Assembly: GCF_058153355.1 (NCBI RefSeq)
Contig: NZ_CM177019.1
DNA length: 64,000 nt
Reading direction: 5' to 3' (one strand)
Position 1 is the first letter of the stretch, and each line of letters begins with the position of its first letter. Below, piece by piece: positions 8,424 to 31,089 of the stretch. The notes beneath the pieces were generated by a model. It had not been told where the DNA came from, did not search any database, and worked only from the letters and a program-made list of their open reading frames with translations. The translations under genes and the position numbers were made by a program.

Positions 8424-9278
8424 TTAACCTGCAATAGCCATTCCTACCGTCATGTGCAGGCCATAAAAGAGCACACGCCCGATCATCTCACCGCCAAGTA
8501 TGAGGATTAGCCCCAGAATAAGTCCGGCAACGTGAGGTTCACGGCGACGAATGAGCGGACAAAGCCAGCATCCTAGACCTGTGCATAACAATACCACACG
8601 CCAGACCTGTAAGGAGGCGTAATCTGGTACCAGTGCGCTGGCTTGTTGTACGGATGAGTGAATAGATGCCAGAGACAAACCTTGCAGCACAATCACTCCG
8701 GCACAAGCGATCAGCGCCAGAACGCTGATCATGGCAAACGGTGTGGTACTAAATGTTACGCGGGCTGCCCGTAGAATTGCGGCAGCAAGTATAGGACCGC
8801 TCAACAATACCGTCAGGAAGAACGCCAGTGTAGTGTAGCCGTTGTGCCAGGTTGGCACAGTGTCGATTTGATACACGCAGGTCATCATCCAGACGAAAAT
8901 GACGCCGAGCACCATGCTAACAAGTAACCAGAGTTTCCCCAGCGCTTGCGGCATTTTACCAATGACCGCCACCAGCCACCATAATCCGCCAACGGCAAAA
9001 AATATTGAACCGGCAGCAATCTCGTTACTCAGGCCGGAAGCTCCGATTCGATTCAGCGAGTTAAACGCCCGCAGTGGCGATCCCAGGTGCATGACAGAGG
9101 CAATAAACCCGATGGCCATCAACAGCCAGAGGAAAAACATGCCACGAACAATGTGCTGACGGTCTGCGTCATTTTTGGCGGCGAACCAGCCAATTCCGCT
9201 AACAATCAGCGCGCCTACTACGCATTGACCCAATACGGTAAAGATAACCAGTGGCCATTCGTGCCATCCATTTCCCAT
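8424..9278 (-). CDS. ynfH: DMSO reductase-type membrane anchor subunit YnfH (DmsC paralog)
   Basis: 284-aa polytopic membrane ORF. Confidence 0.9.
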   Translation of the reverse strand: MGNGWHEWPLVIFTVLGQCVVGALIVSGIGWFAAKNDADRQHIVRGMFFLWLLMAIGFIASVMHLGSPLRAFNSLNRIGASGLSNEIAAGSIFFAVGGLWWLVAVIGKMPQALGKLWLLVSMVLGVIFVWMMTCVYQIDTVPTWHNGYTTLAFFLTVLLSGPILAAAILRAARVTFSTTPFAMISVLALIACAGVIVLQGLSLASIHSSVQQASALVPDYASLQVWRVVLLCTGLGCWLCPLIRRREPHVAGLILGLILILGGEMIGRVLFYGLHMTVGMAIAG

Positions 9279-9907: not shown

Positions 9908-12208
9908 TTAAACCTTTTCGATCTGGACGAGATTGCTGTGCGACGGGTTTCCCTTTGCCAGCGGTGAAGGGCGGTGAGAGGTCAGAATATTGATACTGCC
10001 GCCGTGATCGACCCGGTCACCAAACATATCCGCTTTAAGCCACGCACCTTGCCCGATGGCGGTTACGCCAGGCAGAATACGCGGAGTCACTTTTGCGGCA
10101 ATCAGCATTTCTCCATTATTGTTAAATACCCGCACTGTATCGCCATGACGGATACCGCGTGCCTGAGCATCAATGGGGTTGATCCACACCTCTTGTGGGC
10201 AGGCCTGCTGTAACACATCAATATTGCCGTAGCTGGAGTGGGTACGCGCTTTGTAGTGGAAGCCCGTTAACTGCAGTGGATAGGTTTTCCGCAGGGGATC
10301 GTCCCAGCCATCAAAACCTGGGGTATACGCAGGAAGGGGATGAATTATTTCATCTTTTTTCAATTCCCAGGTATCCGCAATCGTCGCCAGTCGTTCAGAA
10401 TAAATTTCGATTTTCCCCGAAGGTGTTTTCAACGGGTTTGCCTGTGGATCTTCACGGAATGCGCGGAAAGCGACATAGTGTTCTTCCGGGCATTTTTTCT
10501 TAAAGATCCCGGTCATTTTCATCTCCTCGTAGTCCGGCATCTCAGGGTTACGTTCCTTCGTTTTCGCATGGAGATATTTGATCCATTCATGCTGGCTGCG
10601 ACCTTCAGTAAAAGTTTGATAAACGTCTGGTCCTAAGCGTTTCGCGACTTCACTCAGAATCCAGTAGATGGGTTTGCGTTCAAATTTTGCCGAGGTGGCG
10701 GGTTGGGCGAGGATCACATAGCCCATATTCCCTGCAGATTCATGAGAGATAAGGTCTTCTTGCTCTGTTGGCATCAGGTCGGGCAACAGGATATCGCAAT
10801 ACTTAGCCGAGGCCGTCATGAAGTGGTCAATGCCAACAATCATCTCGCACTTGCTGTCATCCTGAAGCACCTCATGGGTGTGATTGATGTCGCCATGTTG
10901 ATTGATCAATGTGTTACTGGCGTAGCACCATAAAAACTTGATGGGGACATCCAGTTTTTCTTTTCCACGAATACCATCACGGGTCGCGGTCATTTCCGTA
11001 CCGTGGTCGATGGCATCTGTCCATGTAAAGACGGAAATCTGCGTTTTAACAGGATTATCAAGCATCGGGAACCATTCGACCCCCAGATCCCAGCTACCTT
11101 CGCGTACACCTGAGTTGCCGCCGTTTATGCCGACGTTACCGGTGAGAACGGAAAGCATGGCAATAGCGCGGGACGTTTGCTCGCCGTTGGAGTGTCGTTG
11201 TGGCCCCCAACCCTGACAAATATAAGCAGGTTTTGCTGAACCGATCTCTCGTGCCAACTGGATAATTTTTTCTGCCGGGATGCTGGTGATTTTTGCTGCC
11301 CATTCCGGCGTTTTAGCTATGCCGTCAGGTCCTTCGCCCAGAATATAGGCTTTATAATGCGCGTTACGTGGTGCGTTGGCGGGCAGCGTTTTTTCATCGT
11401 AACCAACACAATATTTGTCGAGAAATGGCTGATCGACCATGTTTTCCGTAATCAGTACCCAGGCAATCGCACAGGCCAGTGCGCCATCGGTGCCAGGGCG
11501 AATGGGCAGCCATTCATCTTCACGCCCGGCAGCGGTATCGTTATAACGTGGATCAATGACGATCATGCGTGCGTTTGAACGTTCGCGGGCTTGCTCGACG
11601 TAGTAAGTGACACCACCGCCGCTCATCCGCGTTTCTGCCGGGTTATTTCCGAACATAACGACCAGTTTCGTATTGGCGATATCATCCGGGCTGTTGCCAT
11701 CATTGGCACCGAACATATAACTCATTGCGGCACTGATCTGTGCGGTACTGTAGCTGCCATAGCGACTGAGAAAACCACCACAAGAGTTCATCAGACGGTA
11801 CGGGACGTTTGAGTTGGTGATGTTTCCGCCATCTACGCCTGTTCCGTACAGGACATGTACAGCCTCATTGCCGTAATCTTTTAGGATCCGCCGAAGATTA
11901 TCACTGATGGTATCCAGGGCTTCGTCCCAACTTATCCGTTCAAATTTACCTTCACCGCGCTTGCCGACGCGCTTCATGGGATATTTCAGCCGATCAGGAT
12001 GATTCATCCGTCGGCGGATAGAGCGCCCGCGTAAACAGGCCCGAACCTGATGATTACCGTAAACGTCGTCACCTGTCGTATCAGACTCCACCCAGTACAC
12101 AGTGTCATCTTTCACATGCAAACGTAACAGACAGCGGCTCCCGCAGTTAACGGTGCAGGAACTCCAGACCGCTTTCTCTTCTACCGGAGCCTCTGCCGCT
12201 CGGACCAT
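9908..12208 (-). CDS. ynfF: Molybdopterin oxidoreductase catalytic subunit YnfF (DmsA paralog); main 766-codon frame, apparently lacking its Tat signal peptide because of an upstream frameshift
   Basis: 766-aa ORF highly similar to adjacent ynfE; begins MVRAAEAP immediately after where the paralog carries its RR signal. Confidence 0.85.
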   Translation of the reverse strand: MVRAAEAPVEEKAVWSSCTVNCGSRCLLRLHVKDDTVYWVESDTTGDDVYGNHQVRACLRGRSIRRRMNHPDRLKYPMKRVGKRGEGKFERISWDEALDTISDNLRRILKDYGNEAVHVLYGTGVDGGNITNSNVPYRLMNSCGGFLSRYGSYSTAQISAAMSYMFGANDGNSPDDIANTKLVVMFGNNPAETRMSGGGVTYYVEQARERSNARMIVIDPRYNDTAAGREDEWLPIRPGTDGALACAIAWVLITENMVDQPFLDKYCVGYDEKTLPANAPRNAHYKAYILGEGPDGIAKTPEWAAKITSIPAEKIIQLAREIGSAKPAYICQGWGPQRHSNGEQTSRAIAMLSVLTGNVGINGGNSGVREGSWDLGVEWFPMLDNPVKTQISVFTWTDAIDHGTEMTATRDGIRGKEKLDVPIKFLWCYASNTLINQHGDINHTHEVLQDDSKCEMIVGIDHFMTASAKYCDILLPDLMPTEQEDLISHESAGNMGYVILAQPATSAKFERKPIYWILSEVAKRLGPDVYQTFTEGRSQHEWIKYLHAKTKERNPEMPDYEEMKMTGIFKKKCPEEHYVAFRAFREDPQANPLKTPSGKIEIYSERLATIADTWELKKDEIIHPLPAYTPGFDGWDDPLRKTYPLQLTGFHYKARTHSSYGNIDVLQQACPQEVWINPIDAQARGIRHGDTVRVFNNNGEMLIAAKVTPRILPGVTAIGQGAWLKADMFGDRVDHGGSINILTSHRPSPLAKGNPSHSNLVQIEKV

Positions 12209-27922: not shown

Positions 27923-28315
27923 ATGAAATTTCAGGCCATTGTATTAGCAAGTTTTCTTGTCATGCCTTATGCGTTGGCAGATGACCAGGGCGGTTTAAAA
28001 CAGGATGCAGCGCCACCACCGCCTCATGCAATAGAAGATGGCTATCGCGGAACCGATGATGCAAAAAAAATGACCGTTGATTTCGCAAAAACCATGCACG
28101 ATGGCGCTTCGGTTTCACTACGCGGTAATTTGATTTCTCACAAAGGAGAGGACCGTTACGTTTTTCGCGATAAGAGCGGTGAAATTAATGTTGTTATTCC
28201 TGCGGCAGTCTTTGATGGACGAGAAGTTCAGCCGGACCAGATGATCAACATTAGCGGCAGTCTGGATAAGAAAAGCGCGCCGGCCGTCGTTCGGGTCACT
28301 CATTTGCAGAAATAA
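27923..28315 (+). CDS. ydeI: Periplasmic OB-fold (BOF/YgiW family) protein YdeI
   Basis: 130 aa with signal peptide. Confidence 0.85.
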
Positions 28316-28569: not shown

Positions 28570-29460
28570 ATGATCAAGAAGACAACGGAAATTGATGCCA
28601 TCTTGTTAAATCTCAATAAGGCTATCGATGCCCACTACCAGTGGCTGGTAAGTATGTTTCACAGCGTGGTCGCGAGAGATGCCAGTAAGCCAGAAATAAC
28701 GGATAACCATTCTTATGGACTGTGCCAGTTTGGTCGGTGGATTGATCATCTGGGGCCACTCGATAACGATGAATTACCTTACGTTCGGCTAATGGATTCT
28801 GCCCATCAACATATGCATAACTGTGGTCGGGAATTAATGCTGGCTATTGTTGAAAATCACTGGCAGGACGCGCATTTCGACGCTTTTCAGGAAGGGGTGC
28901 TTTCTTTTACTGCGGCATTAACCGATTACAAAATTTATTTGCTGACGATCCGTAGCAATATGGATGTTCTGACGGGATTGCCGGGTCGTCGGGTTCTTGA
29001 TGAATCCTTCGATCATCAGTTACGCAATGCTGAACCTCTGAATCTTTATTTAATGTTGTTGGATATTGACCGATTTAAATTGGTTAATGATACCTACGGG
29101 CATTTAATCGGCGATGTAGTATTACGCACCCTGGCAACTTACTTAGCCAGTTGGACGCGTGATTACGAAACGGTTTATCGCTACGGGGGCGAAGAATTTA
29201 TCATTATTGTCAAAGCGACTAATGATGAAGAAGCATGTCGTGCAGGTGTCAGAATTTGCCAGTTAGTCGATAACCATGCCATCACACATTCTGAAGGGCA
29301 TATCAACATTACCGTGACTGCTGGTGTGAGTCGTGCATTTCCTGAAGAGCCTCTGGATGTGGTCATTGGAAGAGCGGACAGGGCAATGTATGAGGGTAAG
29401 CAAACCGGCAGGAATCGCTGCATGTTTATTGACGAACAAAATGTGATTAACCGAGTTTAA
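28570..29460 (+). CDS. dgcZ: Zinc-sensing diguanylate cyclase DgcZ (YdeH)
   Basis: GGEEF motif RYGGEEF; start trimmed to MIKKTTEID. Confidence 0.85.
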   Translation: MIKKTTEIDAILLNLNKAIDAHYQWLVSMFHSVVARDASKPEITDNHSYGLCQFGRWIDHLGPLDNDELPYVRLMDSAHQHMHNCGRELMLAIVENHWQDAHFDAFQEGVLSFTAALTDYKIYLLTIRSNMDVLTGLPGRRVLDESFDHQLRNAEPLNLYLMLLDIDRFKLVNDTYGHLIGDVVLRTLATYLASWTRDYETVYRYGGEEFIIIVKATNDEEACRAGVRICQLVDNHAITHSEGHINITVTAGVSRAFPEEPLDVVIGRADRAMYEGKQTGRNRCMFIDEQNVINRV

Positions 29461-29470
29461 GCTCCGTTTA
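29454..29470 (+). promoter_or_regulatory. Candidate PhoP box (AGTTTA-N5-CGTTTA direct repeat)
   Basis: Hexamer direct repeat with 5-nt spacer overlapping the dgcZ stop; plausible -10 (tactgt) about 25 nt downstream. Confidence 0.4.
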
Positions 29471-29502
29471 ACATTCATTGAGAAAACTGATGCTACTGTG
29501 TC

Positions 29503-29594
29503 AACGATCCGTTATCAGTGCAGGAAAATGCCTGTTAGCGTAAAAGCAAAACACAAATCTATCCATGCAAGCATTCACCGCCGGTTTACTGGCG
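29503..29594 (+). ncRNA. mgrR: Candidate PhoP-regulated sRNA MgrR (about 90-98 nt), ends approximate
   Basis: PhoP-box-like repeat and -10 upstream; strong intrinsic terminator (7-bp GC stem plus T9) at 29568-29594; no ORF; known neighbourhood of mgtS. Confidence 0.5.
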
Positions 29595-29600
29595 GTTTTT

Positions 29601-29642
29601 TTTTCGCCGTCATAAAAATCAGGCCCCTTGTACACAACTGTA
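29601..29642 (-). terminator. Intrinsic terminator downstream of mgtS
   Basis: 10-bp stem ggccccttgt/acaaggggcc followed on the minus strand by TGATTTTTAT. Confidence 0.5.
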
Positions 29643-29669
29643 ACAAGGGGCCGGTTAGGTGAGGGATTA

Positions 29670-29765
29670 TCTCCGTTCATTAGTCATCCCATTTGTGGCT
29701 GAAATACGCGGCCAGAAACCCAGAAAATAAAATTATTCCCAGTACGGCCATAAAAACATTCATAT
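29670..29765 (-). CDS. mgtS: Small membrane protein MgtS (YneM), 31 aa
   Basis: Manual translation MLGNMNVFMAVLGIILFSGFLAAYFSHKWDD*. Confidence 0.7.
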
Positions 29766-29901
29766 TACCCAGCATTATTTGCCTCCGTTTATGGTGTGGT
29801 GTGTTTCCTCGCTTACCTTAATTTTCATCTCAATGAGAAAGATATTAGCAGAGGTAACTTAAACGAAGGCTGAATTAAATTTTTATTGTGTTCGACTTAA
29901 A

Positions 29902-31089
29902 TCAACAAAGCGCGGGCTGCCCCCACGGTCTTGCACGAATCCCTTTTAACATCAGCACCCACGCAGCAATGATCACCAACGCTAAGATGATAAACAGCGA
30001 GGAAGGCGGCAGGCTGGTTAGCACTACGCCACTCACTAATGGGTTAATCGCCGCACCAAGCCAGCCTAAAGACTGAGCGGAAAAATAGCTGGCTTTCATT
30101 CCTGCCGGCGCAATATGGTCAATCAACATATACTCGCCCGGCGCATAAATGATTTCACCGACAGTAAATACCGCAGCTGACATACCCCACAATAGTAGGC
30201 TGTTGCCGGAAAAGATAAAACCGACCAGCCCGATGACGAAACAGAGGGTGCCTGCTGTCATCAGCGCGCGGATGTTAGCCGGATTAAGGCGGCGGCCCAC
30301 GGAATATTGCAACGTAACCACCATGGCAGCATTCACCGGAAGAACAACCGCGACCACCTTTTCGGCAAAATCACCATCAGCAATCACCATCACATATTGT
30401 GAAATGCATGAAGCAAATGCGCCGCTAACAAAAGAAGCCAGAAAGCCAGAGCAGGTAAACCACAACAGTGCTTTATCTTGTAATAAAACTTTCGGCGACC
30501 AGACACTGCCTGTTTCCGTGGCGATGATTTTCTCGCTGCGCTTTACCCAAATTTGAATGAAAAGCATGGGAAACGCGGAACAGATAGCTGCCAGCCAGAA
30601 GGGCAGATTGATGCTCTGCATCACCAACAGCGTGCCGAGCGGCGGACCGATGGTCCAGCCAATGTTGAGCATGGTGTAGTTGATTGAGAAAATCTTCGTT
30701 TTGCTGGTGGACGAAAGATTGTCGGCAAACCAGGCTTTCAGCACGGTAGCAAAAACGGAGTAGGCGCAGTTAATAAGGGCAAAAAAGAGCACCACTAGCG
30801 TCACGTTATTCACTAAAGGAATGGCAATAAAACCGCTAGCGAAGGCGGTAATTGACAGTAACATATAGCGTTTCTTGTCGAACTTATCCGCCAGGATACC
30901 AAAACCGAGGCTAAAAACGACGCCAATAGTGAGCGCAATTGTCATCGCATAACCAATGAGATCGACACTCAGGCTGTACTGGCGACTCAAGTAAATGGTC
31001 ATAAACGGCAGCGTAGCGCCGCGTCCGATGGTTAATAACAACGACGAGGCAAGAAGGGCGCTGGTAGAGCGTCGTAGGGATAAGTTCAT
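29902..31089 (-). CDS. ydeE: MFS transporter YdeE
   Basis: 395-aa polytopic ORF. Confidence 0.85.
   Translation of the reverse strand: MNLSLRRSTSALLASSLLLTIGRGATLPFMTIYLSRQYSLSVDLIGYAMTIALTIGVVFSLGFGILADKFDKKRYMLLSITAFASGFIAIPLVNNVTLVVLFFALINCAYSVFATVLKAWFADNLSSTSKTKIFSINYTMLNIGWTIGPPLGTLLVMQSINLPFWLAAICSAFPMLFIQIWVKRSEKIIATETGSVWSPKVLLQDKALLWFTCSGFLASFVSGAFASCISQYVMVIADGDFAEKVVAVVLPVNAAMVVTLQYSVGRRLNPANIRALMTAGTLCFVIGLVGFIFSGNSLLLWGMSAAVFTVGEIIYAPGEYMLIDHIAPAGMKASYFSAQSLGWLGAAINPLVSGVVLTSLPPSSLFIILALVIIAAWVLMLKGIRARPWGQPALC

What the first reader, a model, noticed from the sequence alone, without database searches (positions are those of the whole stretch)
29454..29642. PhoP-box plus strong terminator define a likely MgrR sRNA convergent with mgtS
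A direct repeat AGTTTA-N5-CGTTTA overlaps the dgcZ stop. About 110 nt downstream is a GC-stem/T9 intrinsic terminator, with no ORF between them, so a roughly 90-100 nt plus-strand sRNA is predicted. The 31-aa mgtS gene lies convergently with its own terminator. The match to published MgrR is from memory, not alignment.
Basis: partly seen in the sequence, partly recalled or inferred. Interest (0 to 1): 0.3.

Follow-up and report, generated by a model that had tools for sequence, protein, structure and literature searches.

The report
Known E. coli small RNA MgrR

Summary
Window 29506-29604 (+) is mgrR. It gives a full-length Rfam hit to RF01407/STnc560 (277.5 bits; gathering score 55). It also aligns to the annotated K-12 ncRNA mgrR (b4698), with one substitution and one extra T in the terminator tail.

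That is the PhoP box position attributed to Moon & Gottesman 2009. The terminator, the overlap with the dgcZ stop codon and the convergent mgtS with its own terminator are all present.

MgrR is a PhoQ/PhoP-induced, Hfq-dependent RNA. It represses eptB and other mRNAs through nucleotides 55-68.

One refinement came from 74 diverged homologues recovered from metagenomes. They keep CGTTTA, the extended -10 and the start site at fixed spacing. They also keep a third phased half-site (CATTGA, 29476-29481), but not the upstream AGTTTA. The conserved PhoP unit may therefore lie at -41 to -25.

This window carries a minority T9 tail allele. It shifts the reading frame of the antisense small gene mgtT.

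The parts
28570..29460 (+). dgcZ (diguanylate cyclase DgcZ/YdeH) coding sequence. Its last codons and TAA stop (29458-29460) overlap PhoP half-site A.
   Evidence: ORF list. RefSeq annotation of identical DNA in K-12 and CFT073.
29454..29459 (+). PhoP half-site A (AGTTTA), the upstream half of the published PhoP box at -52 to -36. Specific to Escherichia-type loci.
   Evidence: Sequence. Position matches the -52 to -36 quoted in PMC8313858. At the exact phase, only 13 of 74 diverged homologues have 2 or fewer mismatches to KGTTTA, and 6 of those are E. coli-type.
29465..29470 (+). PhoP half-site B (CGTTTA), shared by both candidate boxes. It ends 23 nt upstream of the -10 hexamer.
   Evidence: G-T-T-(T/G)-A in all 74 anchored homologues; the -10 element lies at a fixed distance in 71-74 of 74.
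29476..29481 (+). Candidate third PhoP half-site C (CATTGA), 11 bp downstream of B. It ends 12 nt upstream of the -10 hexamer, so B+C spans -41 to -25.
   Evidence: TT invariant in 74/74. Two or fewer mismatches to KGTTTA in 43/74, against 7.7% of control hexamers. Its function is inferred, not shown.
29491..29499 (+). Extended -10 element TGcTACTGT (TG at 29491-29492, hexamer 29494-29499). There is no -35 hexamer.
   Evidence: TGnTAnnnT conserved in 71-74 of 74 homologues. The sigma-70 consensus scan found no complete promoter in 29300-29950.
29506..29604 (+). mgrR, the MgrR small RNA: 99 nt here, 98 nt in K-12.
   Evidence: K-12 annotation b4698 mapped by alignment. Rfam RF01407 hit at 29472-29686. 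Own covariance model scores 128.8 bits.
29510..29540 (+). 5' stem-loop of MgrR (nt 5-35, 11 base pairs).
   Evidence: Minimum-free-energy fold. Agrees with the enzymatic probing reported in PMC6239178. All 11 pairs show compensatory changes across homologues.
29542..29557 (+). A-rich (ARN)-type motif AAAAGCAAAACACAAA, the proposed contact with the distal face of Hfq (Class II sRNA).
   Evidence: Sequence. Described in PMC6239178. Unpaired in the fold.
29560..29573 (+). Seed / target-pairing region U55-A68 (UAUCCAUGCAAGCA).
   Evidence: Published pairing region. Pairs with K-12 eptB -7 to +9 at -16.8 kcal/mol; 3 of 2000 shuffles do as well. It is the best of all 14-nt windows of the RNA.
29577..29604 (+). 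Rho-independent terminator of MgrR: stem-loop 29577-29596 and U9 tail 29596-29604. Probably also terminates dgcZ transcripts.
   Evidence: Terminator scan; fold. Stem sequence nearly invariant in 74 homologues, with an A-U/G-C exchange at one pair.
29611..29652 (-). mgtS terminator: hairpin 29652 down to 29622, then UGAUUUUUAUG.
   Evidence: Fold at -22.6 kcal/mol, z = -3.5. Covered by the 3' part of the Rfam model.
29680..29775 (-). mgtS (yneM), a 31-aa membrane protein, convergent with mgrR.
   Evidence: ORF; Pfam PF22865 at 88 bits; RefSeq annotation. A convergent mgtS homologue lies downstream in 31 of 75 homologous loci.
29501..29680 (-). mgtT reading frame, antisense to the 3' end of MgrR. 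It is 34 aa in K-12. Here the T9 tract shifts the frame to give a 59-aa ORF.
   Evidence: Translations. Pfam PF23498 matches residues 1-28 only. CFT073 annotation calls it 'frameshifted'.

Best explanation
Window 29506-29604 (+) is mgrR, the gene for the PhoQ/PhoP-dependent, Hfq-binding small RNA MgrR (called STnc560 in Salmonella). In low Mg2+/Ca2+, phosphorylated PhoP binds phased GTTTA-type half-sites just upstream of an extended -10 promoter that has no -35 element, and activates transcription from G29506. Transcription ends at the intrinsic terminator, giving a 99-nt RNA. The RNA has a 5' stem-loop, a single-stranded A-rich (ARN) stretch, a single-stranded seed (nt 55-68) and a terminator hairpin with a U9 tail. 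Hfq binds the U tail and the A-rich stretch. The seed pairs across the start codon of eptB, and with ygdQ, pitA and other mRNAs, repressing them; this changes LPS modification and polymyxin sensitivity. Shown here: sequence identity with the annotated gene, the family match, the promoter and terminator anatomy, structural covariation, and seed-eptB complementarity. Taken from the literature: PhoP dependence, Hfq dependence and the targets. Inferred: that this strain expresses and uses the RNA in the same way.
For: Rfam RF01407 full-length hit, 277.5 bits against a gathering score of 55. K-12 ncRNA mgrR b4698 aligns to 29506-29604 with 1 substitution and 1 extra T, and the promoter region 29431-29505 is identical. 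The locus is present in 5414 of 5426 complete E. coli genomes. The repeat at -52 to -36 matches the published PhoP motif position. A promoter-only mgrR-lacZ fusion (up to +10) and MgrR northern signals follow PhoP levels (PMC3536696). mgrR and mgtS are described as convergent, PhoPQ-dependent genes. The predicted fold, with 5' and 3' hairpins and an open centre, matches the published probing, ARN motif, U55-A68 seed and U8 tail. Seed-eptB duplex: -16.8 kcal/mol across the AUG, reached by 3 of 2000 shuffles. In 74 diverged homologues the half-site, extended -10 and start site keep fixed spacing. In the same set, 89.4% of helix cells pair, against 29-53% for slid controls; 13 of 19 pairs show compensatory changes; covariation score 0.270 against 0.126 in shuffles, 0 of 500 reaching it. 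STnc560 was seen as a ~90-nt RNA enriched 29-fold with Hfq in Salmonella.
Against: Nothing contradicts the identification. Caveats follow. Expression, PhoP binding and Hfq binding cannot be tested with sequence tools. The primary paper (Moon & Gottesman 2009) was not held, so its content is cited second-hand. The published PhoP box rests on motif identification, not a footprint. The eptB sequence used is from K-12, not from this strain. The U tail is one residue longer than in about 90% of E. coli genomes; any effect of that is unknown.
Confidence: 0.97

Rival explanations
1. There is no independent sRNA gene. The hairpin and T9 tract are simply the dgcZ terminator, and any short RNA is dgcZ read-through or a processed 3' UTR fragment.
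For: No terminator lies between the dgcZ stop (29460) and the hairpin at 29577, so dgcZ transcripts very probably do end there.
Against: A fusion carrying only the mgrR promoter up to +10 is active and PhoP-dependent. An extended -10 and the start site are conserved at fixed spacing in 74 homologues. Salmonella-type loci (L044, L054) keep the whole unit downstream of ydeI with no dgcZ (Sittka table). K-12 annotates a separate ncRNA.
Confidence: 0.01
2. The functional PhoP-binding unit is not (or not only) the reader's and the published pair A+B (-52 to -36). It is the pair B+C (CGTTTA-ACATT-CATTGA, -41 to -25), or all three phased half-sites acting together.
For: Half-site C is conserved: TT in 74/74, and 2 or fewer mismatches in 43/74 against 7.7% of controls. 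Half-site A is not conserved outside Escherichia. C ends 12 nt from the -10 hexamer, the classical 'architecture I' position of mgtA and phoP. B ends 23 nt away, the 'architecture III' position of rstA. Both spacings activate in reporter assays (PMC3335776). E. albertii carries an 11-bp insertion between A and B and leaves B+C untouched.
Against: In E. coli, A+B is much the better match to the consensus: 2 mismatches, both at the degenerate first base, against 4 for B+C. A+B is the box recorded in the literature. The conserved TTCATTGA block could serve another purpose. The homologue set is of unknown taxonomy and was selected by an exact seed match.
Confidence: 0.4
3. The region acts mainly as a cis-antisense pair. 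MgrR's 3' end and the mgtS-mgtT mRNA overlap and regulate each other, with trans-targets secondary.
For: The mgtT frame overlaps the MgrR 3' end on the opposite strand: 29 nt in K-12 and the whole RNA in this window. Both genes are induced by the same signal.
Against: The mgtS hairpin terminator lies before the overlap. 43 of 75 homologous loci have the sRNA with no mgtS within the downstream sequence available, up to 900 nt. Trans-repression of eptB from plasmids is documented. Deleting or overexpressing mgtT had no phenotype.
Confidence: 0.03

Closest known systems
MgrR of E. coli K-12 (mgrR, b4698; Moon & Gottesman 2009)
   Same: Same locus (dgcZ - mgrR - mgtT/mgtS - ydeE). Identical promoter region, identical 5' hairpin, ARN motif, seed and terminator stem.
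   Different: C instead of T at +4; C is the commoner E. coli allele in the loci sampled. U9 instead of U8 tail: the exact T9 version is in 204 records and the T8 version in 4885.
STnc560 / MgrR of Salmonella (Rfam RF01407; Sittka et al. 2008)
   Same: Same Rfam family, ~90-nt Hfq-bound RNA, convergent with yneM/mgtS, next to ydeE.
   Different: In Salmonella the upstream neighbour is ydeI, not dgcZ. The promoter therefore does not overlap a stop codon, and the upstream half-site is TGGTTG in Salmonella-type loci.
PhoP-activated promoters of architecture III (rstA, ompX) and architecture I (mgtA, phoP), Zwir et al. 2012
   Same: Direct-orientation PhoP box 23 nt (A+B) or 12 nt (B+C) upstream of the -10 hexamer, on the activating face of the helix.
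   Different: mgrR was not among the 23 promoters classified there. Three phased half-sites sharing the middle one is not one of the five listed architectures.
Class II Hfq-dependent sRNAs (ChiX, CyaR, McaS)
   Same: An ARN-type A-rich stretch plus a U-rich terminator tail, binding both faces of Hfq.
   Different: Different regulators and targets, and no sequence relationship.

Membership tests
MgrR / STnc560 (Rfam RF01407) | Score at or above the Rfam gathering threshold over the full model | tested here: met
   277.5 bits against 55, model positions 1-214 of 214, E = 1.7e-64.
MgrR / STnc560 (Rfam RF01407) | Orthology with the experimentally characterised K-12 gene mgrR (b4698) | tested here: met
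   Alignment maps b4698 onto 29506-29604, with 97 of 98 positions identical plus one extra T.
MgrR / STnc560 (Rfam RF01407) | Genomic context: convergent with mgtS (yneM), beside ydeE | tested here: met
   mgtS at 29680-29775 (-) and ydeE at 29902-31089 (-). Same order as K-12. A convergent mgtS homologue lies downstream in 31 of 75 homologous loci.
MgrR / STnc560 (Rfam RF01407) | Two-hairpin architecture with a single-stranded centre | tested here: met
   MFE fold agrees with published probing. Covariation across 74 homologues: 89.4% of cells paired, 13 of 19 pairs with compensatory changes. That alignment was fitted to the structure, so it leans towards it.
MgrR / STnc560 (Rfam RF01407) | Seed U55-A68 complementary to the eptB translation start | tested here: met
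   -16.8 kcal/mol with K-12 eptB -7 to +9; 3 of 2000 shuffles reach it; best 14-mer of the RNA. This strain's own eptB is not in the window.
PhoP regulon promoter | PhoP box (T/G)GTTTA-N5-(T/G)GTTTA at an activating distance from the -10 hexamer | tested here: met
   AGTTTA-AGCTC-CGTTTA at -52 to -36, 23 nt from the -10 hexamer. Both mismatches are at the degenerate first base.
PhoP regulon promoter | PhoP binding and PhoP-dependent transcription | not testable with these tools
   Reported for K-12 using an identical promoter sequence. Not measured for this strain.
Hfq-dependent Class II sRNA | Rho-independent terminator with a long U tail, plus an ARN motif | tested here: met
   8-pair stem plus U9. 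AAAAGCAAAACACAAA at 29542-29557.
Hfq-dependent Class II sRNA | Physical binding to Hfq and Hfq-dependent stability | not testable with these tools
   Literature only: PMC6239178 and PMC2515195.

The most novel reading that the evidence does not exclude
The mgrR promoter may carry three phased PhoP half-sites. The evolutionarily conserved, and possibly principal, PhoP-binding unit would then be CGTTTA-N5-CATTGA at -41 to -25 (the class II position, 12 nt from the -10 hexamer). The published and reader-identified AGTTTA-N5-CGTTTA at -52 to -36 would be an Escherichia-specific upstream addition that arose where dgcZ abuts the promoter.
Probability: 0.4. Interest if true: 0.25.

Novelty: already known. 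Interest (0 to 1): 0.08.

Why it matters
As a discovery it does not matter. MgrR has been characterised since 2009, is annotated in K-12 and is in Rfam. The value of the check is confirmation that a tool-free reader can locate an sRNA gene correctly from a regulator box and a terminator.

Two small refinements could interest specialists. First, comparative evidence points to a conserved third PhoP half-site at the canonical class II position, which invites a footprint that apparently has never been published. Second, the length of the MgrR U tail (T7, T8 or T9 among E. coli) also sets the reading frame and C-terminus of the antisense small protein MgtT.

Tried and rejected
- **Primary papers not held.** Moon & Gottesman 2009 (PubMed id 19889087, PMC2841474) and Yin et al. 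2019 (PMC6351178) were not in the library. Their content is quoted only through other papers.
- **19-mer genome scan.** An exact 19-mer from the A-rich region, scanned over the one-genome-per-species collection, hit only Escherichia species plus chance matches.
- **MgtS as a protein query.** MgtS is too short for the homologue search. The exact-sequence look-up returned only E. coli-type loci.
- **YdeE homologues.** They led to five Citrobacter loci whose 2-kb flanks lack mgrR and mgtS. This is probably because an ABC-transporter operon separates them: metagenomic loci with 81%-identical YdeE have mgrR about 6 kb away. It is not evidence that the gene is absent.
- **Guessed Salmonella-type terminator pattern.** It found nothing in metagenomes.
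- **Whole-RNA duplex prediction against eptB.** It was uninformative: -40.6 kcal/mol, with 289 of 500 shuffles as good. Only the seed-restricted test is meaningful.
- **Plain MAFFT alignment of the diverged homologues.** It scrambled the 5' hairpin, so a covariance-model alignment was used instead.
- **Escherichia-only alignment.** It has no compensatory changes because divergence is too low. It does show substitutions concentrated in unpaired positions (Fisher p = 1e-4).
- **Consensus sigma-70 promoter scan.** It found nothing, as expected for an activator-dependent promoter.

Full report
**Observation**

AGTTTA (29454-29459), AGCTC and CGTTTA (29465-29470) form a direct repeat with an 11-bp period. 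The dgcZ reading frame ends with TAA at 29458-29460, inside the first half-site.

The core GTTTA-N6-GTTTA occurs once in the 64-kb window, against 0.08 expected from shuffles. The looser published consensus with two mismatches is not distinctive by itself: 27 matches against 18 expected.

An 8-pair G+C-rich stem at 29577-29596 followed by nine T's was one of only two terminator-like sites found in 29300-29950. It folds at -13.7 kcal/mol, z = -4.6. mgtS (31 aa, 29680-29775, minus strand) is convergent. It has its own hairpin at 29622-29652 (-22.6 kcal/mol) followed by a U-rich run.

**Identity**

An Infernal scan of Rfam gives a single hit, RF01407 STnc560. It spans 29472-29686 on the + strand at 277.5 bits (gathering score 55) and covers the full model.

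STnc560 and MgrR are the same Salmonella locus. One paper lists STnc560 at SL1344 position 1,550,776, and another maps MgrR chimeras to 1,550,778-1,550,844.

The K-12 MG1655 record annotates ncRNA mgrR (b4698, 98 nt) between dgcZ and mgtT/mgtS. Alignment maps it onto window 29506-29604. The differences are C for T at +4 and T9 for T8 in the tail, and the upstream 75 bp are identical. The 401-bp region is present in 5414 of 5426 complete E. coli genomes.

**Anatomy**

That is the position quoted for the PhoP motif of Moon & Gottesman 2009 (PMC8313858). An extended -10 element, TGcTACTGT, lies at 29491-29499. There is no -35 hexamer, and a sigma-70 consensus scan finds no complete promoter.

The RNA folds into four parts:
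- a 5' stem-loop (nt 5-35);
- an open centre holding the A-rich ARN stretch (29542-29557);
- the seed U55-A68 (29560-29573);
- the terminator hairpin with its U tail.

This matches the enzymatic probing, ARN motif, seed and U8 tail described in PMC6239178.

**Mechanism**

[quoted passage not shown] A fusion carrying only the promoter up to +10 follows PhoP levels, as does the MgrR northern signal (PMC3536696). mgrR and mgtS are convergent, PhoPQ-dependent genes induced by low Mg2+.

MgrR binds both faces of Hfq and represses eptB and ygdQ. pitA is a further target.

Tested here: the seed pairs with K-12 eptB from -7 to +9, across the AUG, at -16.8 kcal/mol. Only 3 of 2000 shuffled seeds do as well, and nt 55-68 is the best 14-nt window of the whole RNA. 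That this strain behaves in the same way is an inference from near-identity.

**Related sequences**

Within Escherichia (E. albertii, E. whittamii and an unnamed species) every helix cell stays paired. Seven of the eight variable columns of the 5' hairpin lie in unpaired positions (Fisher p = 1e-4).

A metagenome scan with the 18-nt seed returned 120 loci, of which 74 distinct sequences are clear homologues. Because the seed was the query, its invariance in this set is circular; the rest of each sequence is not.

My own covariance model aligned all 74. The results were:
- 89.4% of helix cells pair, against 29-53% when partners are slid;
- 13 of 19 pairs show compensatory double changes, including all 11 pairs of the 5' hairpin;
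- the covariation score is 0.270 against 0.126 in shuffles, with 0 of 500 shuffles reaching it.

This alignment is fitted to the structure, so it leans towards it.

A convergent mgtS homologue (61-100% identical) lies downstream in 31 of 75 loci, and none was found in the downstream sequence available (up to 900 nt) in 43. dgcZ abuts the promoter only in Escherichia-type loci. Salmonella-type loci (L044, L054) have ydeI upstream instead, as in Sittka et al..

**The PhoP box in comparative view**

The 74 promoters were anchored on the CGTTTA half-site (B). The extended -10 sits at a fixed distance in 71-74 of 74, with 23 nt between B and the hexamer, and the start site is also fixed.

A further block 11 bp downstream of B is conserved (C: CATTGA in the window at 29476-29481; also TATTGA, TGTTGA, CGTTGA, CGTTAA). 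Its TT is invariant, and 43 of 74 have 2 or fewer mismatches to KGTTTA, against 7.7% of control hexamers.

Only 13 of 74 have 2 or fewer mismatches, and six of those are E. coli-type.

According to Zwir et al. 2012, direct PhoP boxes activate from 12 nt (mgtA, phoP) or 23 nt (rstA) upstream of the -10 hexamer, on the same helical face. A+B sits at 23 nt and B+C at 12 nt. E. albertii has an exact 11-bp insertion between A and B that leaves B+C untouched.

I therefore rate it an open possibility (about 0.4) that B+C, or all three half-sites, is the conserved binding unit. In E. coli itself A+B is much the better consensus match and is the documented box, though it was documented by motif identification only.

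**Rivals**

A terminator that serves dgcZ alone is excluded as the sole explanation by four lines of evidence: the promoter-only fusion, the conserved -10 and start site, loci that lack dgcZ and the K-12 annotation. Since no other terminator follows the dgcZ stop, the hairpin very probably ends dgcZ transcripts as well.

A mainly cis-antisense role against mgtS-mgtT is unlikely. The mgtS terminator precedes the overlap, and more than half of the homologues have no neighbouring mgtS.

**Verdict**

The feature is the already known sRNA gene mgrR, so interest is low. The third half-site and the tail-length polymorphism that shifts the mgtT frame are minor side results.

Noticed in passing
window 29501-29680 (-), T tract 29596-29604: The small gene mgtT (34 aa in K-12) starts at the mgtS stop and reads antisense through the MgrR terminator tail. 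The T9 tract here shifts its frame to a 59-aa ORF covering all of mgrR; Pfam MgtT matches residues 1-28 only. Among E. coli loci the tract is T7, T8 or T9, giving MgtT of 30, 34 or 59 aa. The exact T9 version is in 204 records and the T8 version in 4885. CFT073's annotation calls mgtT frameshifted.
   Followed up: partly
window 29611-29652 (-) relative to the mgtT frame: The mgtS intrinsic terminator lies inside the mgtT ORF, upstream of its stop codon (about 29576 in the K-12 frame). A full-length MgtT would therefore need read-through of that terminator.
   Followed up: no
window 29583-29599 (+): The MgrR terminator loop and 3' arm (GGTTTACTGGCGGTTTT) match the PhoP-box consensus with one mismatch, one of only two such matches in the window. 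This is probably coincidental.
   Followed up: no
window 29842-29876 (-): The mgtS promoter region shows a PhoP-type half-site CGTTTA (29865 to 29860) with a weak partner AATTCA 11 bp upstream. It lies 12 nt before a TAATAT -10 hexamer (29847 to 29842), the classical architecture I spacing. This is consistent with reported PhoP control of mgtS.
   Followed up: partly
L003 (E. albertii), about 8735-8770: There is an 11-bp insertion (one helical turn) between the two half-sites of the published mgrR PhoP box. It carries its own AGTTTT-like half-site. The downstream half-site, the CATTGA-type block and the -10 are unchanged.
   Followed up: partly
L026-L030 (Citrobacter ydeE loci); L045, L051, L079, L102: In five Citrobacter genomes ydeE is followed directly by an ABC-transporter operon, with no mgtS or mgrR within 2 kb. 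Metagenomic loci with 81%-identical YdeE carry mgrR-mgtS about 6 kb from ydeE, which suggests an insertion between them.
   Followed up: partly
L031-L150 (metagenome loci): 43 of 75 distinct MgrR-like loci have no mgtS in the downstream sequence available (up to 900 nt), so the sRNA often occurs without its small-protein partner. Their taxonomy was not determined.
   Followed up: no
L011 (Escherichia sp. MOD1-EC7003), about 10206-10400: mgrR is intact, but the sequence diverges completely from the middle of the mgtS terminator onward. mgtS appears to be missing at this position in this species.
   Followed up: no
window 27923-28315 (+) compared with L002 (CFT073): ydeI is intact (130 aa) in the window but is a truncated pseudogene in CFT073 and in some metagenomic E. 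coli contigs that share the same T9 mgrR allele.
   Followed up: no
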